This document shows positions 1-25,676 of a stretch of DNA of 25,676 nucleotides, piece after piece. How positions within the stretch are numbered: the first letter of the stretch is position 1; every line of letters begins with the position of its first letter. This DNA is from a virus. Taxonomy: Duplodnaviria; Caudoviricetes. The position numbers and the translations under genes are program-made. The stretch is from positions 1-25,676 of IMG/VR virus record IMGVR_UViG_3300038318_000510; one strand, written 5' to 3'. The notes beneath the pieces were generated by a model that was not told the DNA's origin, did no database searches, and saw only the letters and a list, made by a program, of their open reading frames with translations.

Positions 1-3000
1 TTGGATATATATGGAAAACTTTGTGGAAAAATAAGTGCTATTAACGCTAACACTCTTAAAGTAACATTCAACCAAGCAGCAGATGTTGAAGATGTTGAAC
101 TAGCAGTTACTAGAGGAACTACTAAAGTAGCTGGAACTTTCAAATGGAGTGAAGAAAACAAAGTAGCAACATTTGAAGCTGACGGTAAACTAGTAAAAGG
201 AACTTACACAGTAACAGCTACATCTAAAGCAGATGCAGACTTTAAAGCTACAGGAACTGTTGAAGTAACTGATCAAAAAACAGCTAAAATAGTAATAGAG
301 AATGACGTTGCTTTAACAAGTGATGAAAAAGGACAAGAAAGAAAACAAGCATTTGCATTTTACGATGTAGTAGACCAATATGGTGAATCAGTAAGAGCTA
401 CAACAAATATCACTTGGACGGCAAGTGTAAAAGAAGTAAAGGCAGATAGAACAACGGGACAACTTACGTTAACAAAAGGTGACGGTAATGAGTTCATGTT
501 CAACGAGAAAGTATACATCACGGGAGTAGATACTAAAAATGGTATCTCAGTACAAAAAGAATTAACAATAGGTCAAGCAAGATCATTAGATACTTTAGAA
601 ATTGCAGGATTTGTTAAAAAAGGTACTTCAAAGATAGTAGAAGAATTACCAGCTGGATTTAAGGCAGGAGAATATTCTATGGTATTTGAAGCACTAGACC
701 AAAATGGTAATGTTTATCCAGCAGACAAAGTTTCAGATGCTGATGTAACTTTTGTTTCAGATAATCCATTATTAATAGAAAAAGCATCAGAAGAAGTAAC
801 GAAACTAGTAATAGATGGAGTAGACTACTCAGCAGTAGAAATAACTCCAGGAATGAACCTTGATAAAGGTGGAGAAGTAAACATCACTGCTATAGCTAAG
901 AAAACTGGTAAGCAAACAGTTAAAAATATAGTAGTAGGTGATGTAGCAATACTAGATAGCTTTGAAATGCTAGATCCTTCAGGAATAATAGCAGAAGGAG
1001 AAATAGTAGAAATACCATTTGAAGCAAAAGCTGGTGGCCAAGAAATCACTAACTTCACAACTTTAGCAAGAAAAGCAGGAATAAACGAACTAAAATTAAA
1101 CAAACCATCAACAGGAAGCTTAATACTAAAAGAAAACAACGACGGTACAGCTAAATTATTATACATTCCAGACCCTGCATCATATGCTTGGGATAAATCA
1201 GAAACTACAGATGGACTTGATAGACCAGTTTCATTAACTACAGTAGTAGTAGGTGGAAATGCATCAAATATCATGCTAAATGTAGCAGATAAAGCAAGAC
1301 CAGTAGGAATCAAATCTGTAGACTTTGATAATACATTAGTAGAAAAAGGCGAAACAACAATAACATTATCAAAAGATGCTACTAATAGTTTCACATTCGT
1401 AGACCAATATGGAAGAGAAATGACTAAAGAACTAGCTTATGAATTCTTTGAAGCAGCTGAAGAAGATAAATTCCAATCTGGAACAGAGCTAAAAGACTAT
1501 AAATACTCAATCAAAGCAACATATAAAGGTGAAGATGGAGTATTTAAAGTTAACAATGTTGAGCTTAAAAACAAAGATGCTTTCGAAATAAAAGCAGCAG
1601 CAAGTAATAACACGTTAACATTAGTGGCAGAACAAGAAGTAACAGGTACAGCAAAATCAAACATGGCATTAGATTTTGAGATTATTAGATATAATAAGGC
1701 TGGAACTGCTAACTTTAAAGATGCAGACTTTGACTACACACCAGTAAGTTCAAAGAAAAATGTAGCATTAACAGTTGTAGACATTACAGCAGTTAAAAAC
1801 TTTGAAGTAAAAGAATTACCAAGATTACAAGTAGTTACAAGTAACTCACAATATCCAACAGGAGCAACAATTGATGGTGAATTAAAAGATGGAATGACAA
1901 CAAAAAATGCAGGTTCATTAGAAATTCCAGCTAAAAAAGAAGTTAAAGTAACAGCAGATTACAATGGTAAAGCAGTAACTATACCTGCAGATTATTTAAC
2001 ATTAGAAAGTAATCAATTAAACATTGATGGTGATAACAAAATAACTAATGTTAAAGATTATGTAGCAGCTAGTTCAGGAACAACGGGATCACCTGAAGTA
2101 AGAGGAGTGAACCAAGTTGTAACTATAACAGTTAGTGGTACAGCTACACAAGGAGGAGATATCACTATTAGTGATGGAACTAATAATGTAAAAGTAGCTG
2201 TAGCTGAAAACGATGATGAAGCTGCAGTTGCTGAAAAAATCAGAACTGCAATTGATAATGATTCAAGTTTCATTTTCTCAGCAGATACTACAGAAACAGG
2301 TGCTACAGTAACATTAACAGCTGATGAGCAAAAAGATGATGTAACTATAACATTTGCTGATGCAGATCCTACTACAGGCGTAACTGTATCAATAAAAACA
2401 ACAATCAATGGTAAAGCAGCAGTACCAGCAGTACCAGCAACATCAGCTACACCACAACAAGGCTTTACTTGGGGAGATTTCTATGATGCTAAAACAGCAA
2501 ACTTCCTAAGAAAAGACGCTAAAGCAACTGTAACAGCAAAAGTTTACAAAGGTGAAGATAAAGCACCTGAAAATATGATAAACACAGCTAAGAGAACAAT
2601 ATTACTTTCAGATGCAAAAGCAGTAGCAACAACAATAGAAGGACCAGAAACATTGACAGTAAACCCAAATACTACTAATATCACAGTTGCAGCAAATATA
2701 AAAGGTGCTTACAAAGTATTAGACCAATATGGTGAAGACTTTACAGCAGATAATATTAGCTACAAAGCAATCAATGTTGAAGAAAACAAAGATGGTTATG
2801 TAGATAATAACTTCAAGGTAACTAAGAACGATACAACAGAATTAGCAATAGAAGGGGCAGAAAGAGGAGATACATTTACTCTTGAATTACGTTCTGGAGA
2901 TGCTAAGAAGACAGTAAAAGTAACAGTAGGAGCAGATCTATATGCTAATATTACAAATGGTGATAACAACTATTTAAAGAAATTAATAGGTGATGAAAAA

Positions 3001-3042
3001 GGTAGTGGTTTAGAAAGCCAAAGATTAAACTCACTTAAGTAA
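1..3042 (+). CDS. S-layer protein-like C-terminal region (headless cassette 1); S-layer-like sequence starts at about 34
   Basis: 1013-codon frame rich in T/V/A/K/D/E with repeated DQYG/DQNG motifs typical of Ig-like S-layer domains. No His, and no Cys after codon 8. No signal peptide or SLH repeat. The first 11 codons (MDIYGKLCGKI) look unrelated to the rest. Upstream sequence is outside the window. Confidence 0.7.
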   Translation: MDIYGKLCGKISAINANTLKVTFNQAADVEDVELAVTRGTTKVAGTFKWSEENKVATFEADGKLVKGTYTVTATSKADADFKATGTVEVTDQKTAKIVIENDVALTSDEKGQERKQAFAFYDVVDQYGESVRATTNITWTASVKEVKADRTTGQLTLTKGDGNEFMFNEKVYITGVDTKNGISVQKELTIGQARSLDTLEIAGFVKKGTSKIVEELPAGFKAGEYSMVFEALDQNGNVYPADKVSDADVTFVSDNPLLIEKASEEVTKLVIDGVDYSAVEITPGMNLDKGGEVNITAIAKKTGKQTVKNIVVGDVAILDSFEMLDPSGIIAEGEIVEIPFEAKAGGQEITNFTTLARKAGINELKLNKPSTGSLILKENNDGTAKLLYIPDPASYAWDKSETTDGLDRPVSLTTVVVGGNASNIMLNVADKARPVGIKSVDFDNTLVEKGETTITLSKDATNSFTFVDQYGREMTKELAYEFFEAAEEDKFQSGTELKDYKYSIKATYKGEDGVFKVNNVELKNKDAFEIKAAASNNTLTLVAEQEVTGTAKSNMALDFEIIRYNKAGTANFKDADFDYTPVSSKKNVALTVVDITAVKNFEVKELPRLQVVTSNSQYPTGATIDGELKDGMTTKNAGSLEIPAKKEVKVTADYNGKAVTIPADYLTLESNQLNIDGDNKITNVKDYVAASSGTTGSPEVRGVNQVVTITVSGTATQGGDITISDGTNNVKVAVAENDDEAAVAEKIRTAIDNDSSFIFSADTTETGATVTLTADEQKDDVTITFADADPTTGVTVSIKTTINGKAAVPAVPATSATPQQGFTWGDFYDAKTANFLRKDAKATVTAKVYKGEDKAPENMINTAKRTILLSDAKAVATTIEGPETLTVNPNTTNITVAANIKGAYKVLDQYGEDFTADNISYKAINVEENKDGYVDNNFKVTKNDTTELAIEGAERGDTFTLELRSGDAKKTVKVTVGADLYANITNGDNNYLKKLIGDEKGSGLESQRLNSLK
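35..45 (+). repeat. GTGCTATTAAC direct repeat copy 1 (candidate att/crossover core)
   Basis: Identical to 23314-23324; both copies sit at the 5' extremity of an S-layer-like frame in the same codon phase. Confidence 0.65.
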
Positions 3043-3046: not shown

Positions 3047-3088
3047 CAAAAGAACTCCAAGGATAGAAATATCTTTGGAGTTCTTTTG
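3047..3088 (+). terminator. Strong intrinsic terminator, probably bidirectional
   Basis: CAAAAGAACTCCAAGGATA-GAAA-TATCTTTGGAGTTCTTTTG: 19-bp stem with one G-U pair, right after the stop of ORF 1..3042. Confidence 0.9.
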
Positions 3089-4548
3089 GCTCTTTGTCAA
3101 GTGTTGGGGTGCGATTCCATTGAGTCGTGCTCCAGTACTAGACTTAGGGCTATTTTAATGTCTACATATATTTAGGAGTGTTTTTAGGCACACTTAATAA
3201 ACCTGCCATTATTTAATTTAAAAAAATCGTACTATCCACATGTATGTAAAATTCTGTTTCTAAATCTACTAAAGTTTTTTATACCATAAGAAACTCTTTT
3301 TAGAACTTTAATCTTATTGTTATAACCTTTTCTGTTGGACCATTTGTATACTTATATTTAAAAGCATTCAATATTTCCTTATACCAGCGTCTATAAGTAT
3401 TGGCTACATCTTCAAAATCCTTTATTCCAGAGCTCTCTGCATTTTTAATCCAATTAGTGAACTCGCTTCTAATTATTGAATAACGCTTTTCTTTACAAAT
3501 CTTATAAAACCATTCTTTTAAGAAATGAGCTTTTCTAAGATCGTCATTGTATAGAAGCATTAAGTCGCACCTTTCCTTTTGCTCATGATCTAGCGTGTCA
3601 TAAGGTTTAAGAATCAGTCTTTTGCTATTTTTATAGTATTTTCTTAGTTTAACAGGCATTGTTTTTTGTAGCCTTCTTCTAATTCGATCAATAGCCCAAG
3701 ATATTTGTCTAACGAAATGATACTTATCTACAATGATCTTTGCATTTTTAAAGAATGTTTTTGCAATGTCTCTGTAAGGCTCCCACATATCTGTAACAAA
3801 AAACTTAGTTTTTAGTCGTTCATTTCTTGGTATATCAAGGAAATATTCGTATAAATGAGACTGCGTCCTATCTGGCAAGATATCAATTACATGTTCATGT
3901 TTTCTAGCCCCGTTGACTAATATACATTGAAATTTACCTGTTTCAGCATTTCCTCTAAACTCATCTATGCAGAGTACTTTAGGCATCTTAGTTGGTTTAG
4001 GGTAGCTAATTCGATTGAAAGTTCTAATAACAGTAGGTATGGATACATTAGCTTGCTTGGCAACATGTGTATAGCTTACTGTTTCTCGGAGCTGGTGACA
4101 AATATACATGATTAGCTGCTTTGTCATTCGTTGATATCTGGGTAACCAAGGATAGTTCTCATAAAAGCGTTTACCACATAAGCAAGCATAACGCCTTTTC
4201 CTCAAAATCAGAATAGATGAATTAATTCCAAAGGGTATATGCTTTATCCTTTGATAACGATAATCATGAACCCTTGAAGTTGAGTTACCACACTTGGGAC
4301 AGATATGAGCATGAGGTTTTGTTTCTAACATAACAAATGTTGTATTGGATAGTTCAAGTGAAACCTTTTTAATAATTACCTCTTCAACTTGAAGAAGATT
4401 TTTGATATAATTAGGGTACACTTATAAAACACCTTCTTTCTTTTTTTCTCGTTGTGGAATACGAAAGTAATGGCAGGTGGTTTATAAGTGTATTTTAATA
4501 TAAAAAAATGCTGGAGTGAAGTACCACCCCAACATTTATTATAGAACC
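3088..4548 (-). mobile_element. ISL3-family insertion sequence (1461 bp)
   Basis: Terminal IRs GGCTCTTTGTCAAGTGTTGGGGTG (3088-3111) and GGTTCTATAATAAATGTTGGGGTG (reverse complement of 4525-4548) match 18/24 and enclose an ISL3 transposase; no flanking duplication. Confidence 0.9.
3232..4421 (-). pseudogene. ISL3 transposase, frameshifted near the C-terminus
   Basis: N-terminal zinc finger (CPKCG...CLCGK) and IDEF, TDMWEPY, DKYH and TNGPTE motifs. The expected tail GYNNKIKVLKRVSYGIKNFSRFRNRILHTCG* continues in another frame after 2 extra A at 3328-3331. Confidence 0.85.
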
Positions 4549-4549
4549 A

Positions 4550-5074
4550 CCAGAGGAGAATTTAGATTTAAGGGTGAGAAGGGACCATGTTCCTTATGAT
4601 ATTTGGAAGAGCCAAGGCTATCTTAAAACTACTGAAGGGAATGTTATACACTATGGTTTTATAGAGAAATTCATAGAAGAACTATGGAAGGACTATAACA
4701 TTAAAGAAATAGCCTTTGATAGATGGGGAGCAGTGCAAATGACTCAAAACCTAGAAGGTGCAGGATTTACAGTAGTTCCCTTTGGGCAAGGGTATAAAGA
4801 TATGAGTCCACCTACAAAGGAACTTATGAAATTAACACTGGAAAAGAAAATAGCCCATGGTGAACACCCAGTACTATCCTGGATGATGGACAATATTCAT
4901 GTAAGAACCGATCCAGCTGGAAATATAAAGCCTGATAAGGAAAAATCCACTGAAAAAATAGATGGTGCTGTTGCTTTAATTATGGCATTAGATAGAGCAA
5001 TAAGAAATGAAGGAAGTAAGTTTGACTTAAATGAGTATTCAACAGAAGAAATGCTAGACAAACTTTGGGGTTAG
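4550..5074 (+). pseudogene. terL: Terminase large subunit, C-terminal nuclease fragment only
   Basis: Frame reads PEENLDLRVRRDHVPYDIW directly from the IS end and contains FDRWGA, QGYKDMSPPTK and KIDGAVALIMA; the ATPase half is absent. Confidence 0.88.
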
Positions 5075-5087
5075 GGGGTGATGGTAT

Positions 5088-6368
5088 TTGAATGTATTTA
5101 ATAAGTTAAAGAATATATTTAGTCCTAAAGCTGAAGCGTTACCAGAGGAAATATCATTAAATGATAGAAGGCTTTTAGAAATATTGGGAGTTGAAAATAG
5201 CGAGCTTAATTACAAAGGTAAAAATGCACTAAAGGAAGCAACTGTGTTTTCCTGTATTAGAATATTGGCTGATAGCATAGGTAAACTTCCTACTAAAGTA
5301 TATAAAAATAATAATGGAAGGCAAAGTGCGACAGAACATTATCTAACCCCAATTTTAAAGATTAGACCTAATCCGTGGATGAGTGCCAGGGATTTTTTTA
5401 AGGCTTTAGAAGTTCAGAGAAATATCTATGGAAATGCTTATGCTTGGATTGAATTTGAAACAGTTGGTAAAAATGCAGGTCATGTTACAGGAATATATCC
5501 CTTAGATAGTTCTAAAGTAGAAATATATATTGATGATATAGGACTACTACCTCATAAAGGTAGACTTTGGTATGTTTACACCGATAAAAAAGGTACTCAG
5601 TATAGGATTGATCCTGATGAGATGTTACATTTCAAGGGACTAACCAGCGATGGAATATTGGGTATGACTCCATTAGAACAACTTAAAAACACCATAGAAA
5701 ATGCAGGAGCTGCAAGTGAATATTTAAATAACTCTTTTAAAACTGGGCTTCAAACCAAAGGAATTATTCACTATATAGGAGATTTAAACCCAGAGGCCCA
5801 AAGAGTATTTAGAGAGAGATTTGAACAGATGGCCAGTGGACTTAAAAATGCCAATAGGGTATCCCTTCTTCCTATAGGATATCAATTTCAGCCTTTAAGT
5901 TTAACCATGGCAGATGCCCAGTTTATAGAAAACACTCAGCTTACCGTAAAGCAAATAGCTGCAGCCTTTGGAATAAAGAACCATCAAATAAATGACCTAG
6001 ATAGAGCAACTCATACCAATGTGGAATATCAGCAAAGGGAATTTTATGTAGATACACTAATGGATATTCTAACTGGCTATGAACAGGAATTAACATATAA
6101 GCTATTCACCAATAAGGAATTAGAAGAAGGCTACTACATTAAGTTTAATGTAAATGCCATTTTAAGAGCAGATCCAAAGACTAGATATGAAGGATATCGA
6201 ATTGCAATTCAATCAGGCTTCTTAACAGCTAATGAAGTTAGAGCTTTAGAAGAATTAGAATCTAAAGAAGGAGGAGATAGACTTTTAATCAATGGAAATA
6301 TGATGCCTATTGAAATGGCAGGTGAGCAGTATAAAAGAGGTGGTGATGAAATTGGGAAAGAAGAATAA
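5088..6368 (+). CDS. Phage portal protein (HK97 family)
   Basis: Motifs TVFSCIRILADSIGKLP, RPNPWM, GNAYA, LHFK, IAAAFG and LTANEVRALEEL; follows terL. Confidence 0.93.
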   Translation: MNVFNKLKNIFSPKAEALPEEISLNDRRLLEILGVENSELNYKGKNALKEATVFSCIRILADSIGKLPTKVYKNNNGRQSATEHYLTPILKIRPNPWMSARDFFKALEVQRNIYGNAYAWIEFETVGKNAGHVTGIYPLDSSKVEIYIDDIGLLPHKGRLWYVYTDKKGTQYRIDPDEMLHFKGLTSDGILGMTPLEQLKNTIENAGAASEYLNNSFKTGLQTKGIIHYIGDLNPEAQRVFRERFEQMASGLKNANRVSLLPIGYQFQPLSLTMADAQFIENTQLTVKQIAAAFGIKNHQINDLDRATHTNVEYQQREFYVDTLMDILTGYEQELTYKLFTNKELEEGYYIKFNVNAILRADPKTRYEGYRIAIQSGFLTANEVRALEELESKEGGDRLLINGNMMPIEMAGEQYKRGGDEIGKEE

Positions 6369-7062
6369 AAGGTTTTGGAACTTTAAAGCCATAGATAAAA
6401 CTACTGGAGAATTAACCCTCTATGGTGAAATATCAAATGAAACTTGGTGGGGAGATGAAGTAACACCTAAAGAGTTTAAAGCTGACTTAGATAATCTTGG
6501 GGAAATAGACACACTAAATATCTACATTAACTCTCCAGGAGGTGATGTATTTGCAGGTCAGACTATTTACTCTATCTTAAAAAGACATAAGGCACATAAA
6601 AATATATATATTGATGGGTTAGCTGCAAGTATTGCTTCAGTTATAGCTATGGCAGGCAATACTATTTTTATGCCTAAAAATGCCATGATGATGATTCATA
6701 ATCCTTGGACTGTAGGCATGGGTAATGCAGATGAGTTTAGAAAACTAGCTGAAGACTTAGATAAAATCCGAGAAAGCCTTATTGCAGCTTATGAAAATCA
6801 CTCGGTACTAACAAGAGATGAGATTATAGAGATTATGGATAGTGAAACTTGGCTAACAGCTACAGAATGTGAAGAATATGGATTTTGTGATGTGGTAGAG
6901 GAAGAAAAGAATATGGTTGCTTCTATAGATGTAGAGGTATTAGGAAGATATAGAAATACACCAAAGGTGTTTTTAACTGAAGAACCAAAATCAGAGAAGA
7001 ATGGACAGAACAAAGAACGAGAATTACTAAAGCAAAAATTATTAATTGAACTAGAGCTTTAG
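6352..7062 (+). CDS. ClpP-like head maturation protease
   Basis: INSPGGDVF, DGLAASIASVI, MMIHNP and ETWLTA motifs. Start is likely TTG 6352 or ATG 6346 after GAGGTGGTG. Confidence 0.92.
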   Translation: MGKKNKRFWNFKAIDKTTGELTLYGEISNETWWGDEVTPKEFKADLDNLGEIDTLNIYINSPGGDVFAGQTIYSILKRHKAHKNIYIDGLAASIASVIAMAGNTIFMPKNAMMMIHNPWTVGMGNADEFRKLAEDLDKIRESLIAAYENHSVLTRDEIIEIMDSETWLTATECEEYGFCDVVEEEKNMVASIDVEVLGRYRNTPKVFLTEEPKSEKNGQNKERELLKQKLLIELEL

Positions 7063-7097
7063 GCTCTTTTTTTATTTCAGAAAGGATGGGATGAATT

Positions 7098-8279
7098 ATG
7101 AGTAAAGAATTAAGAGAAATGCTTCAAGAACTAGAATCAAAGAAAGCAAAGGTAAGAGCACTTCTAGGAGAAGATAAAGTCCATGATGCTGAAAAACTAA
7201 TGGAAGAAGTAAGAGCCTTACAAAAGAAAGTGGCCCTTCAGCAGGAATTAGAGGCAGCTGAAAAGTTTGATTTGGAAGATGCCACACCACTTAATGATAA
7301 CAGCGATACTGATAAAGACCTAGAAGCAGAATATAAACGAGTATTCTTAAAAGGATTAAGGAAACAGAGAATTACTGCAGATGATTACAGCATTATTAAT
7401 GAATATAAGGCTGCTATGCATGAAGGTGGAGTAAGCACTGACCCTGATGGGGATATGGGAATTATTGTCCCAGAGGATATACAAACAAAAATTAATGAGC
7501 TTATGAGAAGTATGAATGATTTATCTAAAATTATTCGAGTTGAAAAGGTAAAGGCATTATCTGGTTCTAGAGTTTTAGAAAAAGACGAGGATATGGTTCC
7601 TTTTCAAGTAGTAGATGAGTATGGAGAAATTAAAGAGATGGATAATCCTAAATTTACACCAGTAACATATAAGCTTGTAAAAAGAGCAGGGTTTTTACCA
7701 ATTACCAATGAGTTATTAAAGGATAGTGACCAAAATATTATAGCCTATGTAACAAGATGGATAGCCAAAAAGCATGTGGTGACTAAAAATAGTTTAATTA
7801 TAGAGATATTAAAGTCTCTATCCAGTAAAGATTTAAAAGACATTAAGGCTATTAAGAAAGTATTAAATGTAGATTTAGATCCTGCATTAAGTCTATCCAG
7901 TACAATCATTACCAATCAAGATGGATTTCAATGGCTAGATGAACAGGAAGATGGTAATGGTAGACCACTTCTTCAAGATGATATTACTCAGACTGGAAAG
8001 AAACTGTTCAAAGGCAGACCAATTGCAGTAGTAGCCAATAGAACATTACCTTCCACTGGAACTACCACTGTAAAAGCTCCATTTATAGTTGGAAACTTTA
8101 AGGAATTAATGGTTCTATTTAATCAAGGAGTTTATGAACTAGCTTCTACAACTACTGGTGGAGACGCTTGGAGAAGAGATACTACTGAACTTAGAACCAT
8201 TACAAGAGATGATTGTGTGAAATGGGATACAGATGCAGCAGTATTTGGAAAGCTTACAATTTCAACAACTGGAGCTTAA
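7098..8279 (+). CDS. Major capsid protein (HK97 fold)
   Basis: N-terminal coiled-coil scaffold domain; IVPEDIQTKI, ITNELLKDSD and DGNGRPLLQ motifs; position in the head module. Confidence 0.92.
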   Translation: MSKELREMLQELESKKAKVRALLGEDKVHDAEKLMEEVRALQKKVALQQELEAAEKFDLEDATPLNDNSDTDKDLEAEYKRVFLKGLRKQRITADDYSIINEYKAAMHEGGVSTDPDGDMGIIVPEDIQTKINELMRSMNDLSKIIRVEKVKALSGSRVLEKDEDMVPFQVVDEYGEIKEMDNPKFTPVTYKLVKRAGFLPITNELLKDSDQNIIAYVTRWIAKKHVVTKNSLIIEILKSLSSKDLKDIKAIKKVLNVDLDPALSLSSTIITNQDGFQWLDEQEDGNGRPLLQDDITQTGKKLFKGRPIAVVANRTLPSTGTTTVKAPFIVGNFKELMVLFNQGVYELASTTTGGDAWRRDTTELRTITRDDCVKWDTDAAVFGKLTISTTGA

Positions 8280-8280
8280 G

Positions 8281-8302
8281 GGGTGGGAAATCCACTCCTT
8301 TT
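8281..8302 (+). terminator. Weak terminator-like hairpin after the capsid gene
   Basis: GGGTGG-GAAAT-CCACTC followed by CTTTT. Confidence 0.45.
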
Positions 8303-8316
8303 GGAGGTGATAAGCC

Positions 8317-8607
8317 TTGCTAATTACACTAAAAGAAACTAAAGAATATTTAAGAGTAGATGGAGATGAAGATGATAGTTTAATAGAATCCCTAATAAAT
8401 GCTTCAGAAGAGTATCTTAAAAATGCCACAGGAAAAACCTTTGATAGTACAAACCCTTTAGCTAGGCTATTTTGCTTAGTTCTAGTAGTAGATTGGTATG
8501 AAAACCGAGGTTTAACTGCTGGAAAGGTAGGCCAAAAGATAAGGCCTGTAATTGATAGTATGCTTACACAGCTTAATTACTGTTATCCAGAGGAGATGGT
8601 GGAATGA
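8317..8607 (+). CDS. Head-tail connector (gp6-like)
   Basis: TLKETKEYLRVDGDEDDSLIESLI...WYENR. Confidence 0.88.
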   Translation: MLITLKETKEYLRVDGDEDDSLIESLINASEEYLKNATGKTFDSTNPLARLFCLVLVVDWYENRGLTAGKVGQKIRPVIDSMLTQLNYCYPEEMVE

Positions 8608-8930
8608 ATCCAGGTGAACTAAATAAAAGAATTACCCTTCAAAGATTAAATACCACCACCAATGAGAATGGCTTTGAAGTTGAAGATTGGAAGGATTTTA
8701 AAACTGTATGGGCAGCTGTTACCAATCTTCATGGAAGAGAATACTTTGAAGCTGCAACAGTGCAAAGAGAAAACACAGTTAAGTTTACTATTCGCTACCT
8801 TAAAAATATAGACACCTCTATGAGGATACTCTTTCAAGGGAAACAATATAACATCACTGCCGTTGATAATATTAAATACAAAAATGTGTATATGGAAATT
8901 AAGGCATTGGAGGTGGATAAGAGTGGCTGA
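8604..8930 (+). CDS. Head closure / head-tail joining protein
   Basis: MNPGELNKRITLQ...WA...GREYFEA...FTIRY. Confidence 0.88.
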   Translation: MNPGELNKRITLQRLNTTTNENGFEVEDWKDFKTVWAAVTNLHGREYFEAATVQRENTVKFTIRYLKNIDTSMRILFQGKQYNITAVDNIKYKNVYMEIKALEVDKSG

Positions 8931-10184: not shown

Positions 10185-10187
10185 TAT

Positions 10188-17030: not shown

Positions 17031-17176
17031 TGATGTATAAATATATGATTCCAGTGTATGCATTTTTAGTAAAGGCAGAAGTTAGGACTATAGAAAGTCT
17101 GCCAATTGACTATCAAATACCTGTCGCAGAATATATGGTAGGGATAGTTGAGGAAGAGATAAATGGAACCAATTAG
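17030..17176 (+). CDS. Small CD1375/XkdX-like phage protein (48 aa; not in the ORF track)
   Basis: MMYKYMIPVYAFLVKAEVRTIESLPIDYQIPVAEYM...; RBS AGGAGG; start overlaps the previous stop (TAATG). Confidence 0.7.
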   Translation: MMYKYMIPVYAFLVKAEVRTIESLPIDYQIPVAEYMVGIVEEEINGTN

Positions 17177-18260
17177 AATATTATCACCAAAATTTGATTT
17201 ACAGGGAGAGATAGACAACTATCTTTCCTTTTCTTTTTTAAGAAGATACCACTCTCCTGGGGAGTTTCAGCTGGTTACTAATAGAAAAGTACAAAATGCA
17301 GATAAGCTAAATATTGATCAATTAATCATGCTTGGAGCAGATAAATATAAGACTGGAATTATAAGGCATAAAGAAATAAAGACAAATGAACAGGGAGAAG
17401 AAATCCTAACAGTAAGAGGCTATACACTAGGAGCTATTACAAAACAAAGAATTACTATTCCACTAGATAACCAGGCCACAGATACAATTGAAGCAGATGC
17501 AGAAACAGTGATGAAACATTATGTGAAAAGGAACTGCTTAGATATTCCCAGTATGAAGTTTCCTATGCTCATGATAGCTGAAAATAAGAATAGAGGCCCT
17601 AATATTAAATGGCAAAGTAGATATAAAAATTTAGAAGAAGAGTTGGAAATAATAAGTAACCTATTAGGACTAGGTTGGTATATCTATCCTGACTTCAATT
17701 TAAAGAAGTGGGTATTTGACATATATAATGGAAGGGATTTTTCAGTAAGCCAAAATATTAATCCTCCTGTTATCTTCTCCCCTGAATTCGACAATGTTAA
17801 ATCCCAGGAGTATGTAGATAGTTTATTGGACTATGGAAATTTTGCTATTGTGGCAGGACAAGGTGAAGGTGCGAATAGAGAAATTATAACAGTTGGAAGC
17901 GATGATACTGGTCTTGATAAACACATCATATTTGTAGATGCAAGAGATTTAGAAAATAGTGATGATTTGCCAAGGAAAGGTGAAGCTAAACTTAATGAAC
18001 ATAAAAGAGTTCTTACTTTCCAATCAGAGATACTTCCAGAAGGGCCATTTAAGTATGAGAAGGATTGGAAATTGGGAGATATAGTGACAGTTAAGAATAA
18101 GGACTGGGGTGTTACCATGGATACTAGGATTACAGAGGTAACAGAAATTTATGAAGCAGGTGGTTTTAAGCTAAATGTAACTTTTGGAGAAAGCTTACCT
18201 ACTCTAATGGATAAAATTCAGCGAGAATTAAAAGGTTTTAATAATGTGGTTACAAGGTAA
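17163..18260 (+). CDS. Siphovirus ReqiPepy6 Gp37-like minor tail protein
   Basis: RRYHSPGEFQL, VIFSPEFDN, VAGQGEG, FVDARD and DWKLGDIVTV. Confidence 0.82.
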   Translation: MEPIRILSPKFDLQGEIDNYLSFSFLRRYHSPGEFQLVTNRKVQNADKLNIDQLIMLGADKYKTGIIRHKEIKTNEQGEEILTVRGYTLGAITKQRITIPLDNQATDTIEADAETVMKHYVKRNCLDIPSMKFPMLMIAENKNRGPNIKWQSRYKNLEEELEIISNLLGLGWYIYPDFNLKKWVFDIYNGRDFSVSQNINPPVIFSPEFDNVKSQEYVDSLLDYGNFAIVAGQGEGANREIITVGSDDTGLDKHIIFVDARDLENSDDLPRKGEAKLNEHKRVLTFQSEILPEGPFKYEKDWKLGDIVTVKNKDWGVTMDTRITEVTEIYEAGGFKLNVTFGESLPTLMDKIQRELKGFNNVVTR

Positions 18261-18330
18261 TCTAATGACTTAGAAATAAATTTATTCATTATAACAGGTG
18301 TATGATAAAATACAGTAAGAGGTGAAATTT

Positions 18331-19161
18331 ATGGATTATAGTTTGTTAGATGAGCATTTAGAAAAAATGGAACCTTATTTTAAAAAATGGATCAGAGAAT
18401 ATAATATTATGTTGCTTGATTCTAGCCTTGAAAGTGCTAAATATGAAGTATCAATTGATGCTACATTTAATCCCAAAGATGCAATATGCCAGCAATATAT
18501 GTATTCTATTTATAATGCATTTCGTGAATTGGTAAGAACTTATTGCTATTCAACTTCAGCATACTCAATAGAAAAAGAGCTTAGAGATAAAGAAGAGATT
18601 GCTTGGAGTAATTATTGGAAATATGAGATTAAGAATTACTATTTTAGAAGTATAATTCCTAGATATTTCTCAATTTTAGATTATATAGCTGTTATGATAA
18701 ATGAAATATCAAAGCAAAAATTAATACCTAATATTAGAATTGTAGATTTTAAAAAGATGATGGATAAACTAGTAAGCCTTAAAGATATGGAAAGTGTTGG
18801 ATGGTTAACTGAAAAAGATATCAAAGAAATAAAAGAAATATTTAATGATATACAATCTAGTATTACTAGTGAAGAGAGGAAAATTTTGCGAGATTATAGG
18901 AATAAAGAAACTCATAGATATTTAATAGGGATTGATGAAATAACAGTTTCTACTCATAAAAGGAGATTAACAAAAAAAGAGAAAGAATTATATAAATTAA
19001 AAGGTGACTATGCATATAGCTTTAAAGGGAAACCAGAAATTGAGTTTTCTAAACTGAATACAATTGTTGAAAAATTAATTAATAATCTTGATTTGGTGAT
19101 TTCTAAATTATTAGAATTAGACATAATGAAGAATGTCTTAGTTATAAGGAAAGATGACTAG
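18331..19161 (+). CDS. HEPN-domain protein (Cthe_2314-like), candidate defence RNase moron
   Basis: Helical, very AT-rich, with an R-x4-H motif (YRNKETHR) and an upstream FSILDYIA motif; ATG 18331 follows AGAGGTG. Confidence 0.65.
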   Translation: MDYSLLDEHLEKMEPYFKKWIREYNIMLLDSSLESAKYEVSIDATFNPKDAICQQYMYSIYNAFRELVRTYCYSTSAYSIEKELRDKEEIAWSNYWKYEIKNYYFRSIIPRYFSILDYIAVMINEISKQKLIPNIRIVDFKKMMDKLVSLKDMESVGWLTEKDIKEIKEIFNDIQSSITSEERKILRDYRNKETHRYLIGIDEITVSTHKRRLTKKEKELYKLKGDYAYSFKGKPEIEFSKLNTIVEKLINNLDLVISKLLELDIMKNVLVIRKDD

Positions 19162-19206
19162 AATGTATATACACAAAGATAATAAAAATTAATAGCATGA
19201 AAGATA

Positions 19207-19232
19207 AGGCATCCAATGGATGTCTATTTTTT
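19207..19232 (+). terminator. Terminator-like hairpin after the HEPN gene
   Basis: AGGCATCC-AAT-GGATGTCT followed by ATTTTTT. Confidence 0.55.
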
Positions 19233-19253
19233 ATGCTGAAAGGAGGAAAATGC

Positions 19254-19655
19254 ATGAAAGATATAATCCATACCATCCAAATTATATTTGCAGCCATTGG
19301 TGCATATATTGGTTGGTTTTTAGGTGGATTTGATGGCTTGCTTTATGCACTAGTAGCTTTTGTAGTACTTGACTATATAACAGGTTTGATGGTGGCTATT
19401 TTAGATAAGAAGTTATCTAGTAGCATTGGATTTAAAGGTATTTTTAAAAAAGTACTCATCTTTATATTTGTAGGGATAGGTCACATCATAGACTTTTATA
19501 TTCTCCAAAATGGGAGTGCAGTTAGAACTGCAGTAATCTTCTTCTATTTATCCAATGAAGGATTAAGCATAGTAGAAAATGCTGCAAAGATTGGACTTCC
19601 TGTGCCAGAAAGCTTAAAGAAAGTATTTATAGAATTAAAGAAGGAGGAGGATTAA
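19254..19655 (+). CDS. Phage holin (toxin secretion/phage lysis family)
   Basis: GWFLGGFDGLL, DYITG, LSSSIGFKGIFKK and NEGLSIVEN; ATG 19254 after AGGAGG. Confidence 0.92.
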   Translation: MKDIIHTIQIIFAAIGAYIGWFLGGFDGLLYALVAFVVLDYITGLMVAILDKKLSSSIGFKGIFKKVLIFIFVGIGHIIDFYILQNGSAVRTAVIFFYLSNEGLSIVENAAKIGLPVPESLKKVFIELKKEED

Positions 19656-20333
19656 ATGGCGAGACTTTGCTTGGACTATGGGCATGGTGGAGAAGATCCA
19701 GGAGCCATATATAAAGAACGATGCGAAAAAGATGATACATTAAATCTTGGTAGAGCAGTGGCTAAAATCTTAAGAAGGCATGGAGTTATTGTAGATGAAA
19801 CTAGAACGAAAGATATAACTGTAAGCTTAAAGGAAAGAAGTAACTTTGAAAAGAAGGGTAGATATGATTATTTTATATCCTTCCATCGAAACGCCTTTAA
19901 ACCAGAGAAAGCTAAAGGGGTAGAAACTTATACCTATCTAAATCAAGGGGCAAAGGCTAAAGAGTTAGCTGATAAGATCCAAAATTCTTTAGTGGATGTT
20001 GGCTTTACAGATAGAGGAGTAAAGGCTGCTAACTTTCATGTATTAAGAGAAACTAAAGCACCGGCAGTACTTATAGAAATAGGGTTTATTGATAATAGTA
20101 GGGACAACCAAATATTCGATAATAAGTTTGAGAAAATCGTAAAAGCCATATCAAAAGCAATTTTATCTCAGTTAGGAATTAAATATATAACATCTACTGG
20201 CTCTCCACCAAAGAGTCAAACTCTATATCGAGTGATGGCAGGTTCTTTTAAAGAAAGAGAAAATGCAGAAAGACAAGTTAAAAAATTAAAATCGACAGGT
20301 TTTGATGCCACCATTATGATATTCAATAAATAA
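19656..20333 (+). CDS. Endolysin: N-acetylmuramoyl-L-alanine amidase (Amidase_3) with a SPOR-like C-terminus
   Basis: LDYGHGGEDPGA, EK, ISFHRNA and PAVLIEIGFIDN; C-terminal LYRVMAGSFKERENAE. Confidence 0.93.
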   Translation: MARLCLDYGHGGEDPGAIYKERCEKDDTLNLGRAVAKILRRHGVIVDETRTKDITVSLKERSNFEKKGRYDYFISFHRNAFKPEKAKGVETYTYLNQGAKAKELADKIQNSLVDVGFTDRGVKAANFHVLRETKAPAVLIEIGFIDNSRDNQIFDNKFEKIVKAISKAILSQLGIKYITSTGSPPKSQTLYRVMAGSFKERENAERQVKKLKSTGFDATIMIFNK

Positions 20334-20491: not shown

Positions 20492-21349
20492 ATGTTGTTA
20501 AGTCAAGAGATACAGGAGTTTTCAAAATATATGAAGCTAATAGACAGGTCAGAGCAAACCATTATAGGATATGAAAAAGAACTGATTTATTTTGATAATT
20601 TCTTAAGTGTAAAACATAATTGCCCAATGTATATAAAAGATATTGAATTGGAGGATATTGAGGATTATCTTCTGGACCAAAAGGAGAGAGGCATAGCAAC
20701 AGCTAGTAGAAGTAGGTCAGTTTACATCTTAAGAAGCTTTTATAAATACTGCGTGAAAAAAGATATTGTTAAGAAAAATATTGCTAATCTAATCGAACCA
20801 GTAAAAGTAAAACAAAAGGAAAGAGACTTTTTAACAGAAGAGGAATTTGAAGCACTTATAGAAGCAATTAGGCAGCCAGTTATTAAAACAGTGGTGCAGA
20901 CTATGTTCTACACTGGTGGGAGAGTATCAGAGATAATTCATTTAAAACTAGAAGACGTGGATTTAGAAAACAAAGTAATGCATATTATTGAAGGAAAAGG
21001 TGGAAAGGATAGGGACATTCCAATCAACAATAAACTTTGCAACATACTACAAAATTATTTAAAAAACATTAGAGAAGCAGATTCTAATAGGTTCTTTGCT
21101 TTAGAAAGTACTGGAAAAGTATCTAGTAGCTATATCAACAGGCTTATTAAAGAAGCTGCAGATGAGATTGGACTTGAAAAAGAAGTATCAGCCCATGTGT
21201 TAAGGCATTCTTTTGGAACAAACCTTTTAGAAAAAGGAGCTTCAGTGGTAAGCATTCAAAAACTACTGGGCCATGCAAACCTAGCAGTAACCACAAGATA
21301 TCTACATCAAGACATGAATAAATTAAGCGATACAGTAAATCTTTTATAG
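20492..21349 (+). CDS. XerC/D-like tyrosine recombinase
   Basis: SAM-like N-domain; complete catalytic set TGGRVSE, GKGGKDR, HVLRHSF, LGH and TTRY; no arm-binding domain apparent at 285 aa. Confidence 0.93.
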   Translation: MLLSQEIQEFSKYMKLIDRSEQTIIGYEKELIYFDNFLSVKHNCPMYIKDIELEDIEDYLLDQKERGIATASRSRSVYILRSFYKYCVKKDIVKKNIANLIEPVKVKQKERDFLTEEEFEALIEAIRQPVIKTVVQTMFYTGGRVSEIIHLKLEDVDLENKVMHIIEGKGGKDRDIPINNKLCNILQNYLKNIREADSNRFFALESTGKVSSSYINRLIKEAADEIGLEKEVSAHVLRHSFGTNLLEKGASVVSIQKLLGHANLAVTTRYLHQDMNKLSDTVNLL

Positions 21350-21360: not shown

Positions 21361-22107
21361 ATGAGTGATAATAAACCAATTTATACTTCAAAGGTAAGAA
21401 AGATAATAGAGCTATTGAAATTTCAAACAAGAGATGAAGCTGCAGAGGAATTAGGGTATAAAAACTACAAGAGTTTGGATATGTATATGAGAAGAAAGAA
21501 TTTCAGATTTGATAGTGACAGTGGGCAGTATGTACCAAAGGAAAATAGAGTAGACAAATTAAACCGAGACCCTAAAAGTTATGCACCTATAAAGGTAGTG
21601 AGTATCATCACTGCCTTTGAGGAAGCTAACGCAGACCCAATGCTAATAGCCAAACAAGAAGGATTCAAAGACCATAAGGAAATGGCAGAATATATGGCTA
21701 ATAAGGGTTATGAGTGGAATGCTTATAAAAATAATTATGTAAAGACTATAGGAAAGGTAGAGGAAAAAACAGCAGATGAAGTAATAGAGGAAGTAGTAAC
21801 AACCCAAAGTCCACCGACAGATATAGATGAATACATTCCATTTATCCGATTTCTATATGAGAAAAGAGATGATATTTATCAGTTGTTATCAGGAACTAAA
21901 GAAGATGGAACCATACCAAGATATGTAGTGCCAGGACTTGTTAGAACCAAAGCCATTTATATGAGTGATATGGTGGCAAAGCTTACTGCAGAATTTAGCA
22001 AAGAAAAGAATGTAACCCAAAGAGAAGTCATGGAGGGAGCACTGATTGAATATTTGCAGAAGTATGGGTTTAAGAGGGAAGTTGAATCATTATTGAAGAA
22101 TCAATAA
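21361..22107 (+). CDS. Hypothetical, probably DNA-binding, partner of the recombinase
   Basis: RBS GGAGG 11 nt after the recombinase stop; duplicated HTH-like motif; ribbon-helix-helix-like C-terminus. Confidence 0.6.
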   Translation: MSDNKPIYTSKVRKIIELLKFQTRDEAAEELGYKNYKSLDMYMRRKNFRFDSDSGQYVPKENRVDKLNRDPKSYAPIKVVSIITAFEEANADPMLIAKQEGFKDHKEMAEYMANKGYEWNAYKNNYVKTIGKVEEKTADEVIEEVVTTQSPPTDIDEYIPFIRFLYEKRDDIYQLLSGTKEDGTIPRYVVPGLVRTKAIYMSDMVAKLTAEFSKEKNVTQREVMEGALIEYLQKYGFKREVESLLKNQ

Positions 22108-22345: not shown

Positions 22346-22519
22346 ATGGCAACATCATCTTTTAATAAAGATTTCACCTTAAAAACTAAAAAAGCTGTGG
22401 AGTCATTCGAGAGAATAGTTTCCACTCCTACGAAGAGTATTAAAATTGATAAAAAGTTTTTATCGCCTGAAAAAGAAAGGCGAGGTGAGCTTAAATTAAA
22501 ACAAATGTTATCTCGTTAA
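22346..22519 (+). CDS. Small basic protein (57 aa), putative antitoxin (not in the ORF track)
   Basis: RBS AAAGGAGG; MATSSFNKDFTLKTKKAVESFERIVSTPTK...; lies directly upstream of the GNAT gene. Confidence 0.7.
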   Translation: MATSSFNKDFTLKTKKAVESFERIVSTPTKSIKIDKKFLSPEKERRGELKLKQMLSR

Positions 22520-22533
22520 AAAGACTGATAGAA

Positions 22534-23097
22534 ATGAGTGATGAGGAAAAAGCTCAGGAACTCATTTCTATTTTTAATTGTGAGAAGGATAAAGATATTG
22601 AAAACTTTATAAGAGAAAGAGCAATATTATTTGAGAAACTTGGTAAAAGTAGAACCTATCTTATATTTGATGAAGATGAAGAGGAGTTCAAAGTTCTAGC
22701 TTACTTTACCTTAGCAATGCAGGTCTTAAAAATACCTGAAGATTTACTATCGAATCGTAAGACGAAATTTCTTGATGGTTTTAGTTCGAAAATAAGAGGG
22801 GAAAAGATTACTGAATTTCCAACAATTCTAATTGGACAAGTAGGTAAGAATGATTTATTTAAAGAATTAATTTCAGGAAATGAGATTATGCAATATTGTC
22901 TTTCAACTGTATTTAAGGGACAAGCAGTTCTAGCTGGTAGAATCATCATGCTAGAATGTAAAGATATACCGTACATAATTAACCTTTATAAAAAGTTTGG
23001 TTTTCAGAAATTAGAAAAAGATTATGATGAGGATGAGCATATTCAAATGATTAAAATTCTTGAAGAGGATGAAATAATAGAGCCACAAGATCAGTAA
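22534..23097 (+). CDS. GNAT-family acetyltransferase, putative toxin
   Basis: FNCEKDKDIENFI, LAYFTL, ILIGQVGKN, IIMLEC and LYKKFGF resemble AtaT/TacT-type GNAT toxins; the true start may be 22495. Confidence 0.7.
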   Translation: MSDEEKAQELISIFNCEKDKDIENFIRERAILFEKLGKSRTYLIFDEDEEEFKVLAYFTLAMQVLKIPEDLLSNRKTKFLDGFSSKIRGEKITEFPTILIGQVGKNDLFKELISGNEIMQYCLSTVFKGQAVLAGRIIMLECKDIPYIINLYKKFGFQKLEKDYDEDEHIQMIKILEEDEIIEPQDQ

Positions 23098-23244
23098 TGA
23101 TTTAAATATAAGATATATAAAATGCGAATAAAACATTTGAGTAACAAAAATCATTAGAAAACCATTATGAATAATAAGCTTATAAAACCTATCAGTATGC
23201 ATAATGATACTCATTATATGAATGAAGACTAATTTAGGAATATA

Positions 23245-23288
23245 AGAAGGCTCTGAACCTTTGATTTAAGTGGGGTTCAGGGCTTTTT
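23245..23288 (+). terminator. Inverted repeat / terminator just upstream of the second repeat core
   Basis: AGAAGGCTCTGAACC ... GGTTCAGGGCTTTTT, a 15-bp stem with G-U pairs. Confidence 0.6.
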
Positions 23289-23309
23289 GTTATACATAGA
23301 AATAGGTAA

Positions 23310-25676
23310 TTTTGTGCTATTAACCTTGCTGAAGTAAAGGTAACTTTTAATACTGCAGTTGATAAGAAATCTATTGATTTAGCTAATTTTAAATATGATG
23401 GAATTAAGTTAGACGCAAATAATAAAGATGGTTTTACATTGTCCGAAGATGGAAAAACAGTTGTTTTCTTCAAGGATAAAGCCTTCGTTTCAAATCAACA
23501 GCAAACTAGAAAAATTTCACTAAGTGGAATTAAATCAGTTGATGGGAAAGAAATGGCACCAATTGTAGATCAAAAGATTTCATTTATTGATACAGAAGTT
23601 CCTACATTAACAAATGTTGAAGTTATAGGAAACAGATTATTAAAATTAGTTTTCAATGAACCACTTGATAGAACTCTAAATTCAGCTAAGATTTATTCTA
23701 ACTATAGAATTGATAACAAGGCAGTTGTAGGAGATGCTACAGCACCAGTTTCAATTTCAAGAAATAATATAACTCTCACATTAGCTGCAGGATTATCAGC
23801 TGGTGAGCATACAATGAACTTTGTTAATGGTACCGTTAAGGACTATGCAGGTTTTGGAGCAGTTGCACCAGACGTTAAGTTCACTGTTCTTGAAGATACC
23901 GCAAAGCCAGAAATAAAAGAAGTAGCTGCAGCAGAGCAAAATATGCTTGAACTTCAGTTTAATAAAGCAGTTAATGTTAGCAATGCAAAAATTTACTGGA
24001 TGAATGGTGTAGTAAAGAAACAAGCAAGCGTGTACACATTAGCTGATAAATCTTACGTTTATGCGGATTTTTATGATGCAAATCATACAAAAGCTCTTCC
24101 ATTAGTAGAAACTACAGTTTATATTGAAGGTGTAAAAGACTACTATGGAAATGCAATGGATAAAGTTGAATTAAAGGTAAAAGCTAATGCTGATATAACC
24201 AGACCTACTATAAAATCCGTTGTACCAGAATTATACAATGAAAACGGTGCATTTATTGCCACTTTTGATGAGGATGTATTAATTCCTACTTCATGGTATA
24301 ACAAGGTTGTTGTAACTGACAAAGATGGATATAAGGTAACAGTTACAGGTCTACAATATAATACAGATAGTGCTAATAACTCTATTATGAGTGAAGTTAA
24401 GATTCTTGGATCATTCCCAAGTTCAAGTTCACCATATACTGTAACAATTAAAGATTTTCCAGATTTATCACCACAGGAAAATACTAACCTAGTTCAAGAG
24501 TTTAAAATTGGAGTAGACGATACAACAAAACCAAGTGTTCAAAAAGCTACATTTATACCGACAAATAATAGCTTGGTTATAACTTTCTCAAAAGCAGTTG
24601 ATCCAGCAACAGCTGCAGACTTATCAAATTACACTTACGAATACAATGGATTATACATTGCATTCCCAAGTGGTGCAGATGTTGTTATGTCAAATAACTT
24701 GAAAGTAGCTACTATTACATTGCCAGCTTCTTGGTATGTAGGCTCAACACAACTTACTGCTGCAAATTATTTCAATACTGAAAAAAGAATGATAATAAAT
24801 AATATAACAGATTTATTAGGAAATAAGAGGGGTACAGCTACAATACTTACTGATATTGATAAGGGTATTCTTGCAGCAGTAGATAGCGTACAATCCAGAA
24901 GCAAAAATACAATAAGAATTCAATTAAATGCAACAACTGGCAATCTTCCAGTTGAAGCATATGCAGGAGATTTCGAAATTGTATTAGCATCAGATGGCAC
25001 AACAGCAGTTCCTGGATTATATGTAACAGATGCTAAAGTGGATTCAGCAAATAGAAGAATCAATTTAACATTATCAGATGAAATAAATGCAGATGGAAAG
25101 ACATATGGAACACCTGCTGTAGCTTTCGAAGTAAAGACAGTAACAACCCCATCAATAACTAAAGATGCATATAATACTCCATTTGTTATGGCAGCAACAG
25201 TTCCTGCTGACAAAGTAAGTGCTGATTTAGTAATGCCAGCCAGCGGAGTACTTGAAGTAACCGGCAACACAGTTACTGTTCCATTCAATGAACCATTAAC
25301 TACAATTAGTGTTAGTGATAAAGCAGGTACAGCATTTGTAGTTAGAGATAGAAATGGACAAAAATTAACATTTGATGAAGACTATACTGTTATAGCAAGT
25401 GGCAACAATGTATTAATCAATTTTACTGCTTCTCAAGACAGTTTTGTTACTGTAGAGCTTATTGATAATACATTAGTTAAAGACGCTGCTGGTAATTTAG
25501 TAAATGACTTTAGTGCAGTTCAATCTAATGGACCAGTTAATGCACCAGCATATACAATTAATTATGCTACTGAAAAAACTAACGAAGTTATACCAACAAC
25601 AGTAGAATATGCAACAGATGTTGCATTTACAACAGGACGTATGGATGGAACTGGGGCAGTTATTGCTGTAACACCA
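23310..25676 (+). pseudogene. Headless S-layer protein-like cassette 2 (open frame of at least 789 codons, runs off the window)
   Basis: Manual translation found no stop: FCAINLAEVKVTFNTAVDKKSIDLANF... Repeated Ig-like units (DTEVPTLTNV..LVFNEPL, DTAKPEIKEV..LQFNKAV, DITRPTIKSV, DTTKPSVQ..ITFSKAV). In-frame TAA at 23307-23309; no start codon, RBS, signal peptide or SLH at the 5' end. Confidence 0.8.
23314..23324 (+). repeat. GTGCTATTAAC direct repeat copy 2 (candidate att/crossover core)
   Basis: Identical to 35-45. Confidence 0.65.

What the first reader, a model, noticed from the sequence alone, without database searches (positions are those of the whole stretch)
35..23324. Candidate phage-driven S-layer switching: prophage bounded by an in-frame 11-bp repeat, carrying a replacement S-layer 3' cassette
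Seen: GTGCTATTAAC occurs at 35-45 and 23314-23324 (23,279 bp apart, direct orientation). Each copy is exactly where a long S-layer-like frame begins, in the same codon phase (SAINANTLKVTFN vs CAINLAEVKVTFN). Upstream of each copy the sequence is not S-layer-like. Between the copies lie cassette 1, its terminator and a prophage. Known: many Firmicute S-layer proteins have a signal peptide and SLH anchor followed by variable Ig-like lattice domains, S-layers serve as phage receptors, and integrating elements often restore their target gene by carrying its 3' end. Inference: the repeat is the att core at the anchor/lattice junction. Integration would fuse the element's own ~1000-aa lattice region to the host promoter and anchor and displace the former 3' end (cassette 2). 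That replaces the cell surface on lysogeny, which could give superinfection exclusion or antigenic variation, and excision would reverse it. I do not know of this being described. An 11-mer repeat alone is weak evidence in AT-rich DNA; the matching position and phase carry the argument.
Basis: partly seen in the sequence, partly recalled or inferred. Interest (0 to 1): 0.92.

Follow-up and report, generated by a model that had tools for sequence, protein, structure and literature searches.

The report
Phage delivering swappable S-layer coat cassettes
This is the remnant of a bacterial virus whose family sits inside the host's surface-coat (S-layer) gene at one short DNA site, with a different coat-forming gene half lying between that site and the virus genes, so infection likely re-coats the cell and adds a new option to a host DNA switch that likely flips between coats.

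Summary
The repeat is real and is the end site of a phage family; the working core is 9 bp, GTGCTATTA. Of 22 informative relatives, 18 have it just after the integrase module and 3 have a variant core. Three prophages seen end to end run: complete surface-protein gene with the core at an internal junction, whole phage, core, start-less displaced 3' part. Other samples show window cassette 1 and cassette 2 each fused in frame to the same host anchor end, and cassette 2 behind the window's left arm. The window's left arm is the silent end of a host inversion-type S-layer locus. A related integrase/partner pair with this core occurs in Clostridiaceae (17 of 21 carriers). In this window cassette 1 is silent and an ISL3 has removed the phage's left half. 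Recombination was not observed; the states come from different samples. Superinfection exclusion is untested. Nine literature searches found no description.

The parts
1..34 (+). Arm A: non-anchor left arm, the silent side of a host inversion-type S-layer locus (contig starts here)
   Evidence: Same arm precedes two other cassettes in L044 and L045 and cassette 2 in P0121/P0152/P0157; like the arms after chromosomal integrase/partner pairs
35..43 (+). Recombination core GTGCTATTA, left copy (the 11-mer runs to 45)
   Evidence: anchor-side joins fall at position 32 in four runs
34..3042 (+). Cassette 1: start-less S-layer-type lattice region, 1002 aa, inferred to be phage-borne
   Evidence: 46% over full length to anchor-bearing P0003; 51% over 683 aa to the anchor-fused lattice of G164; no Pfam hit
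3047..3087 (+). Intrinsic-terminator-like hairpin after cassette 1
   Evidence: z -9.68
3088..4548 (-). ISL3 element (transposase 3300-4421) without target duplication; marks deletion of the phage's immunity, replication and terS/terL-5' region
   Evidence: same junction in runs X2 and X3
4549..18260 (+). Siphophage late genes: terL remnant, portal, protease, capsid, tail tube, tape measure, Dit, Gp37-like
   Evidence: Pfam; 93-95% nt to the intact prophages of G007 and G429
18322..19161 (+). HEPN-like accessory gene
   Evidence: weak Pfam HEPN_Cthe2314, below cut-off
19197..20333 (+). Holin and amidase
20492..21349 (+). Xer-sized tyrosine recombinase (285 aa), inferred integrase
   Evidence: R144, K172, H235, R238, H261, Y270 invariant in 12 of 12 aligned; below XerC/XerD cut-offs; phage clade 100/100
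21361..22107 (+). Conserved partner protein (248 aa), probably DNA-binding; candidate directionality factor
   Evidence: follows the integrase in the loci examined; no family; weak HTH/RHH leads only
22346..23097 (+). Two-gene cargo in a variable slot (toxin-antitoxin-like by recall; no family hit)
   Evidence: slot content differs among relatives; no hits
23140..23313 (+). Arm B: phage-side arm with a conserved hairpin (about 23247-23287) some 30 nt before the core
   Evidence: 97% to G007 and G429; hairpin motif in 12 of 12 arms listed; fold z -2.1
23314..23322 (+). Recombination core GTGCTATTA, right copy (attR)
23313..25676 (+). Cassette 2: start-less host-type S-layer lattice with Big_5 domains; runs off the window (892 aa in L045)
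   Evidence: Big_5; 98.9% nt to the anchor-fused gene in L045

Best explanation
The window holds the right half of a temperate phage whose family lies at a 9-bp site at the anchor/lattice junction of S-layer-type genes, and the phage likely carries its own lattice cassette, so that integration would put a new lattice behind whichever arm it enters and would push the resident lattice to the phage's far end. Mechanism: the phage attP is arm B + core + lattice. Its Xer-sized recombinase, probably helped by the adjacent partner protein, recombines with the core of the host gene (inferred). In many Clostridiaceae that gene belongs to a two-cassette locus with an inverted silent core and a related chromosomal recombinase pair (layout shown; flipping inferred). 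A lysogen would then have three cassettes. The window is the state with the phage cassette on the silent arm. Run X2 shows the same defective element with cassette 1 on the anchor. L045 shows cassette 2 on that anchor with no phage between the two cores. Shown: layouts and alternative junctions. Inferred: which enzyme acts, direction and rate, S-layer lattice formation, any benefit.
For: 18 of 22 informative relatives have the exact core within 2.1 kb after the partner gene; 11 of the 18 are followed by a frame of 300 aa or more (about 0.015 expected per 3 kb). End-to-end cases: C. liquoris (995-aa CWB2-anchored gene, cores 40.8 kb apart, 654-aa displaced lattice, 25% identical to the installed one), G429, G695 (SLH gene, variant core). 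G696 has the attP order, with the cassette between the phage's right-end and early genes. The anchor end before cassette 2 in L045 equals the 16-nt loose end before cassette 1 in X2. Anchor-type ends join cassette-1 variants in two RNA-library runs, where cassette bins have depth 13-556 (1920 in the first bin of X6) against 0-4 over the IS and terL (contigs only). The three variant-core phages form their own integrase subclade (96/91). 17 of 21 Clostridiaceae carriers of the partner gene have core + long start-less lattice downstream; 7 have an inverted anchor gene within 22 kb; G1097 and G1181 show two cassette types reciprocally swapped. Control: 0 of 11 lattices found by protein similarity in other genomes have the core at the boundary.
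Against: No excision, circle or inversion was seen within one clone; the states come from different assemblies and may be strain differences. G696 is not a proven circle: its ends share a 92-nt inverted match and terL lacks 140 aa. In G429 the two cassettes are 88% identical over 568 aa, so the change there is modest. Two attR frames stop early (L022, L052), as does variant-core L053; L014 has the core upstream and divergent. Three of 21 Clostridiaceae carriers show no core in the DNA fetched. The RNA contigs with cassette-1 variants carry a different anchor end and do not cover the IS or phage. Neither cassette matches a solved S-layer by sequence.
Confidence: 0.77

Rival explanations
1. Plain gene restoration: the phage targets the S-layer gene and carries a 3' part only so that an essential gene survives; coat change is a side effect without selected benefit.
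For: G429 cassettes 88% identical over 568 aa. Near-identical phages (93-95% nt) sit in hosts with unrelated lattices, which argues against the lattice being this phage's own receptor. Integrating elements that restore their target are established knowledge (recalled).
Against: The carried part is 640-1000 aa and only 25-28% identical to the displaced part in G007 and G008, and unrelated in the window. Cassettes differ between near-identical phages. It explains the same anatomy and differs only on function.
Confidence: 0.35
2. All cassettes belong to the host. The phage uses the core only at its right end, or sits between host cassettes, and does not package a lattice.
For: Host loci with 2-3 recombinase/arm/cassette units exist without phage genes in the DNA fetched (G1205, G1089, G1139). 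No virion or closed circle with a cassette was seen. IMG/VR provirus calls G001 and G003 exclude the cassette.
Against: In G007 and G429 the only direct partner of attR is the core inside the anchor gene. G696 has the cassette inside the phage gene order. Cassette 1 is unlike the host's other three cassettes, which resemble each other at 28-39%, and like the lattice of another genome.
Confidence: 0.12
3. The alternative junctions are fixed strain differences or assembly chimeras, not active switching.
For: All evidence is from short-read contigs or separate genomes.
Against: The shared sequence is 9-14 bp, too short to mislead assemblers with longer words (inference). Unitigs in X2 and X3 begin with exactly 30 shared letters (16+14, 17+13), as expected if one anchor branches to several cassettes in one sample (word size 31 recalled). 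Isolate genomes show the same layout.
Confidence: 0.15

Closest known systems
Lactobacillus acidophilus slpA/slpB inversion of the slp segment (passages read in PMC7858073; Boot 1996 seen only as a reference)
   Same: An active and a silent S-layer gene exchanged by chromosomal inversion; matches the host layout of L045, G376 and six more genomes.
   Different: Here the crossover is at the anchor/lattice junction in a 9-bp core, a recombinase/partner pair sits beside the silent arm, and phages and small elements add further cassettes at the same core.
Geobacillus stearothermophilus S-layer variation, PV72 and ATCC 12980 (passage in PMC3919590; the originals were not held or not opened)
   Same: S-layer change by DNA rearrangement with a mobile replicon. 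57 Geobacillus-type proteins share an anchor up to PKVESV and fall into 26 lattice clusters after it.
   Different: Described with plasmids, not a phage. In 10 Bacillales genomes the boundary reads GTGCGATTA, CAGCCGTTA or similar, no start-less cassette lay in the DNA fetched, and the partner gene was in 1 of 5. A lead only.
Prophages and islands that integrate in coding genes and restore or switch them (SpyCI in mutL, HK022; abstract starts in the listings; other examples recalled)
   Same: Tyrosine-recombinase integration inside a gene, with phenotype tied to integration state.
   Different: Those restore, interrupt or re-promote the same gene; here 2-3 kb of coding sequence is replaced by a different lattice.
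Shufflons and gene-altering programmed inversions (passages read in PMC9881135)
   Same: Constant 5' part with interchangeable 3' parts joined at a short site.
   Different: Cassettes arrive on a mobile phage; the passages shown name no S-layer target.
Clostridioides difficile S-layer cassette exchange (passages in bioRxiv 10.1101/2025.04.02.646754) and C. tetani group II intron alternative splicing (PMC3919590, abstract start and passages)
   Same: Clostridial S-layer diversification by swapping parts.
   Different: Homologous recombination of whole cassettes, or RNA splicing; not site-specific, not phage-borne.

Membership tests
Temperate phage with tyrosine integrase (att-bounded prophage) | Direct core repeats at both ends of a complete phage | tested here: met
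   G007 and G429; variant core in G695
Temperate phage with tyrosine integrase (att-bounded prophage) | Recombinase with R-K-H-R-H-Y catalytic set | tested here: met
   (residue roles from established knowledge)
Temperate phage with tyrosine integrase (att-bounded prophage) | Empty site exists | tested here: met
   arm A + cassette 2 proteins; anchor + cassette 2 without phage between the cores, L045
Temperate phage with tyrosine integrase (att-bounded prophage) | Excised circle or virion with attP | tested here: inconclusive
   G696 has attP order but no terminal direct repeat
Temperate phage with tyrosine integrase (att-bounded prophage) | This copy is complete | tested here: not met
   left half replaced by ISL3
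S-layer protein | Signal peptide and wall anchor upstream of the core in expressed form | tested here: met
   CWB2 in G007, SLH in G695 and G012; the L045, G429 and G376 N-termini have no anchor family above cut-off
S-layer protein | Ig-like lattice domains | tested here: inconclusive
   Big_5 in cassette 2; cassette 1 only weak CopC-like matches; the fold job did not finish
S-layer protein | Forms a paracrystalline surface array, dominant surface protein | not testable with these tools
   needs EM and MS
L. acidophilus-type invertible S-layer locus (host part) | Expressed and silent genes in inverted orientation with a shared crossover site | tested here: met
   L045, G376, G1255, G1097, G1141, G1181, G1175, G1257
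L. acidophilus-type invertible S-layer locus (host part) | Both orientations in one clone | not testable with these tools
   only cross-sample and cross-genome states were seen
XerC/XerD (dif) system or IMEX | Score above XerC/XerD curated cut-offs | tested here: not met
   203 and 197 bits against cut-offs 330 and 335; the element has its own recombinase
Integron | IntI family score | tested here: not met
   114 bits against 265; attC folding not tested

The most novel reading that the evidence does not exclude
Phages, small satellite-like elements and host invertases in Bacillota share one recombination site at the S-layer anchor/lattice junction and form a mobile coat-cassette exchange. A phage installs its lattice, can leave by recombination in the shared tract behind the cassettes taking the host's old lattice with it, and so moves whole coats between genera. 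The same site may underlie the classical Geobacillus S-layer variation.
Probability: 0.4. Interest if true: 0.94.

Novelty: new variant of a known kind. Interest (0 to 1): 0.86.

Why it matters
The S-layer is the cell's outermost and most abundant protein and a common phage receptor. A phage that rewrites most of that gene on integration is a form of lysogenic conversion I could not find described (nine searches of open-access full text). It offers a concrete route for the mosaic anchor/lattice structure of Firmicute S-layers and names a site, an enzyme and a culturable strain (C. liquoris DSM 100320) in which to test it. It may also give a compact recombinase/site pair for Clostridia.

Tried and rejected
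The repeat as evidence by itself: rejected. Cassette 1 or arm A in viral contigs: nothing. Arm A in five related genomes: 0 of 5. Isolated phages: best integrase match 32%, no partner gene; plasmids: one 32% partner match, not followed up; P0140 not in plasmids, phages or viral contigs. Arm-B pattern in viral contigs: 4 of 8 hits were chance matches in unrelated phages (L036, L040, L042, L043). TWAGTGC(T/W)ATTA elsewhere in genomes: of 22 sites read only 3 were S-layer junctions, so the core needs context. G399 has distant integrase/partner copies in tandem elements without a core. Partner-protein fold: pLDDT 61, no Foldseek hit at E<=0.001; atlas lead RHH_3 at 0.89, under the tool's threshold. 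Cassette-1 fold never returned. Geobacillus extension at DNA level: not confirmed. No read or contig laying is available for the right end (19500-25676), so the circle junction in runs is unexamined. Fifteen Clostridiaceae genomes were limited and 13 of them unscored, and 2 were unscored, so tallies are floors. Literature searches gave no description; subscription journals are largely not covered, Scholz 2001 was not held, and no supplements were read.
Full report
Observation. The 11-mer is exact at 35-45 and 23314-23324, direct and in phase. Alone it means little: 549 11-mers recur in the window. The window is a whole virus record. It holds cassette 1 (34-3042), a terminator, an ISL3 without target duplication that joins the terminator to about codon 343 of terL, late phage genes, a 285-aa tyrosine recombinase, a 248-aa partner, a cargo pair, a hairpin arm and cassette 2. 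Both cassettes start where full-length homologs pass from anchor to lattice, and they resemble each other only over 24 residues.

The core is the phage end. Integrase and partner searches gave 32 phage-clade loci after merging duplicates; 10 end too early. Of the other 22, 18 have GTGCTATTA 162-2063 nt after the partner gene, 3 have a variant core and 1 (L014) has the core upstream on the other strand. Of the 18 downstream frames, 11 are 300 aa or longer, 5 run off the contig and 2 stop early. The residues around the core vary (CAIT, RAIS, GAIS, SAII), so the conservation is in the DNA; 0 of 11 lattices found by protein similarity in other genomes have it at the boundary. The three variant-core phages form their own integrase subclade, one shared change of enzyme and site.

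The phage's left end lies inside a complete surface-protein gene. In Clostridium liquoris DSM 100320 a 995-aa CWB2-anchored gene has the core at LKVESV|SAIN; a complete phage 94-95% identical to the window follows; 40.8 kb later come arm B, the core and a start-less 654-aa lattice 25% identical to the installed one. G429 shows the same over 43.2 kb, but its two lattices are 88% identical over 568 aa. G695 shows it with an SLH gene and the variant core near residue 829. G696 has the order expected of a free phage, with a long lattice frame (983 aa from the core) between right-end and early genes, but it is not a proven circle. The window, G007 and G429 phages are 93-95% identical yet their left lattices gave no match to each other.

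States of this locus in other samples. Three ENA proteins 98% identical to cassette 2 begin with the translation of the window's left arm. L045 has cassette 2 fused to a full gene and, 5.9 kb away and inverted, the window's left arm with another cassette; L044 has that arm with a further cassette. Run X2 has one contig over 32-4607 (cassette 1, IS, terL; 4 differences) whose 16-nt loose end equals the L045 anchor end. X3, X5 and X6 join cassette-1 variants to a different anchor-type end; in X6 three contigs share that end, one at depth 8062 and the cassette-1 variant at 171. These are contigs, so they show presence, not transcription level or strand. X1 may be the source sample and was not used. 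I laid 4 of the 24 runs listed.

The host layer. The partner gene was found in 21 of 238 scored Clostridiaceae genomes. In 17 of the 21 a core and a start-less lattice of about 650-1300 aa follow it on the same strand, 1 has it divergent and 3 show none in the DNA fetched. Seven have a complete anchor gene with the same core inverted within 22 kb. G1097 and G1181 carry two cassette types in reciprocal positions. These chromosomal recombinases are 43-52% identical to the phage enzyme and lie outside its clade. Their commonest arm (..ggaaatataa) resembles the window's left arm (..ggaaaaataa). G1205, G1089, G1139 and G575 hold further recombinase/arm/cassette units, which suggests tandem accretion.

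How it likely works. Inferred: the phage circle reads arm B, core, lattice, terminator, early genes. Integration at the anchor core installs the phage lattice and moves the old one behind arm B. Host inversion between the anchor core and the silent core can then park the phage cassette on the silent arm, which is the window's state, or bring it back, as in X2. Direct integration at the silent core would give the same window. Excision between the direct cores yields the L045 or P0121 states. In G429 the displaced lattice is followed by 240 bp 98% identical to the phage's left end, and L002 has a similar tract. That suggests lattices left by earlier phages, and a route by homologous recombination for a phage to leave with the host's lattice. 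The partner protein's role is a guess. This copy lacks replication and packaging genes but keeps an intact integrase.

Against. No recombination event was seen in a clone. The benefit is unknown; near-identical phages in hosts with unrelated lattices argue against simple self-exclusion. Neither cassette matches a solved S-layer by sequence, and the cassette-1 fold did not return. The Geobacillus link is only at protein level: PDB surface-layer chains and P0140 diverge right after PKVESVSAI, and 57 proteins fall into 26 lattice clusters after that point, but SbsD reads TAVN, and 10 Bacillales genomes showed variant boundaries with no start-less cassette nearby. The names SbsA and SbsC for those entries, and labels such as ImmA, DUF4411, Rpn, PemK and toxin-antitoxin, are recalled and come from no call.

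Known and new. Inversion-type S-layer switches are known (L. acidophilus, passages in PMC7858073; G. stearothermophilus and Campylobacter as summarised in PMC3919590). Passages of PMC9881135, PMC4902306, PMC13437554, PMC4232325 and bioRxiv 2025.04.02.646754 did not describe a phage-borne lattice. Searches found none; subscription papers and supplements were not seen. Earlier scan notes list host inversion switches in other genomes, none mentioning a phage in the lines shown. Verdict: a new variant built from known parts, well supported as anatomy, untested as function. Interest 0.86.

Noticed in passing
L016 6440-6760, L053 10700-11250, L055 10730-11000, G695 C1:2486: A subgroup of the phages uses another core (CTTATATT[GA]A[CT]) deep inside an SLH protein and replaces only its last third; its integrases form a subclade.
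   Followed up: partly
window 3088-4548: The same ISL3/terL deletion junction occurs in runs X2 and X3 of other studies; X3 also has the uninterrupted terminator flank and an intact terL flank.
   Followed up: partly
window 22110-23140 and equivalents: The slot between partner gene and arm B carries different cargo in different relatives (labels recalled: Rpn-like, ImmA + DUF4411, PemK-like, toxin-antitoxin-like).
   Followed up: no
G429 C1 after 310445 and after 353699; L002 14650-14850; G007: A 170-240-bp non-coding tract follows both installed and displaced cassettes; possible scar of earlier phages or a second exchange site.
   Followed up: partly
L084 18290-18470 (G429): A second cargo + arm B copy 6.9 kb beyond attR ends just before the core position, at what looks like an IS end.
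   Followed up: partly
G008 C22 after the cassette; L013 after 13569; X3 loose end at window 3052: A short repeated element (AAGCTCAGTCGCA ... CTAAAGCGTAGACTGAACTAA) follows several cassettes.
   Followed up: no
G399 C1:337000-362000: Three tandem ~9-kb satellite-like elements with distant integrase/partner homologs and no core.
   Followed up: no
G575 C29:800-12300: A small non-phage element with its own integrase/partner and a GTGCCATTA core + 845-aa cassette sits between a lattice end and the phage's left end.
   Followed up: partly
P0140-P0276, P0145: Geobacillus-type S-layer proteins share an anchor up to PKVESV and diverge after SAI(N); P0145 is a start-less lattice of that type with an arm-like leader.
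   Followed up: partly
window 18322-19161: HEPN-like gene between tail and holin; a similar gene also sits in the non-phage locus L014.
   Followed up: no
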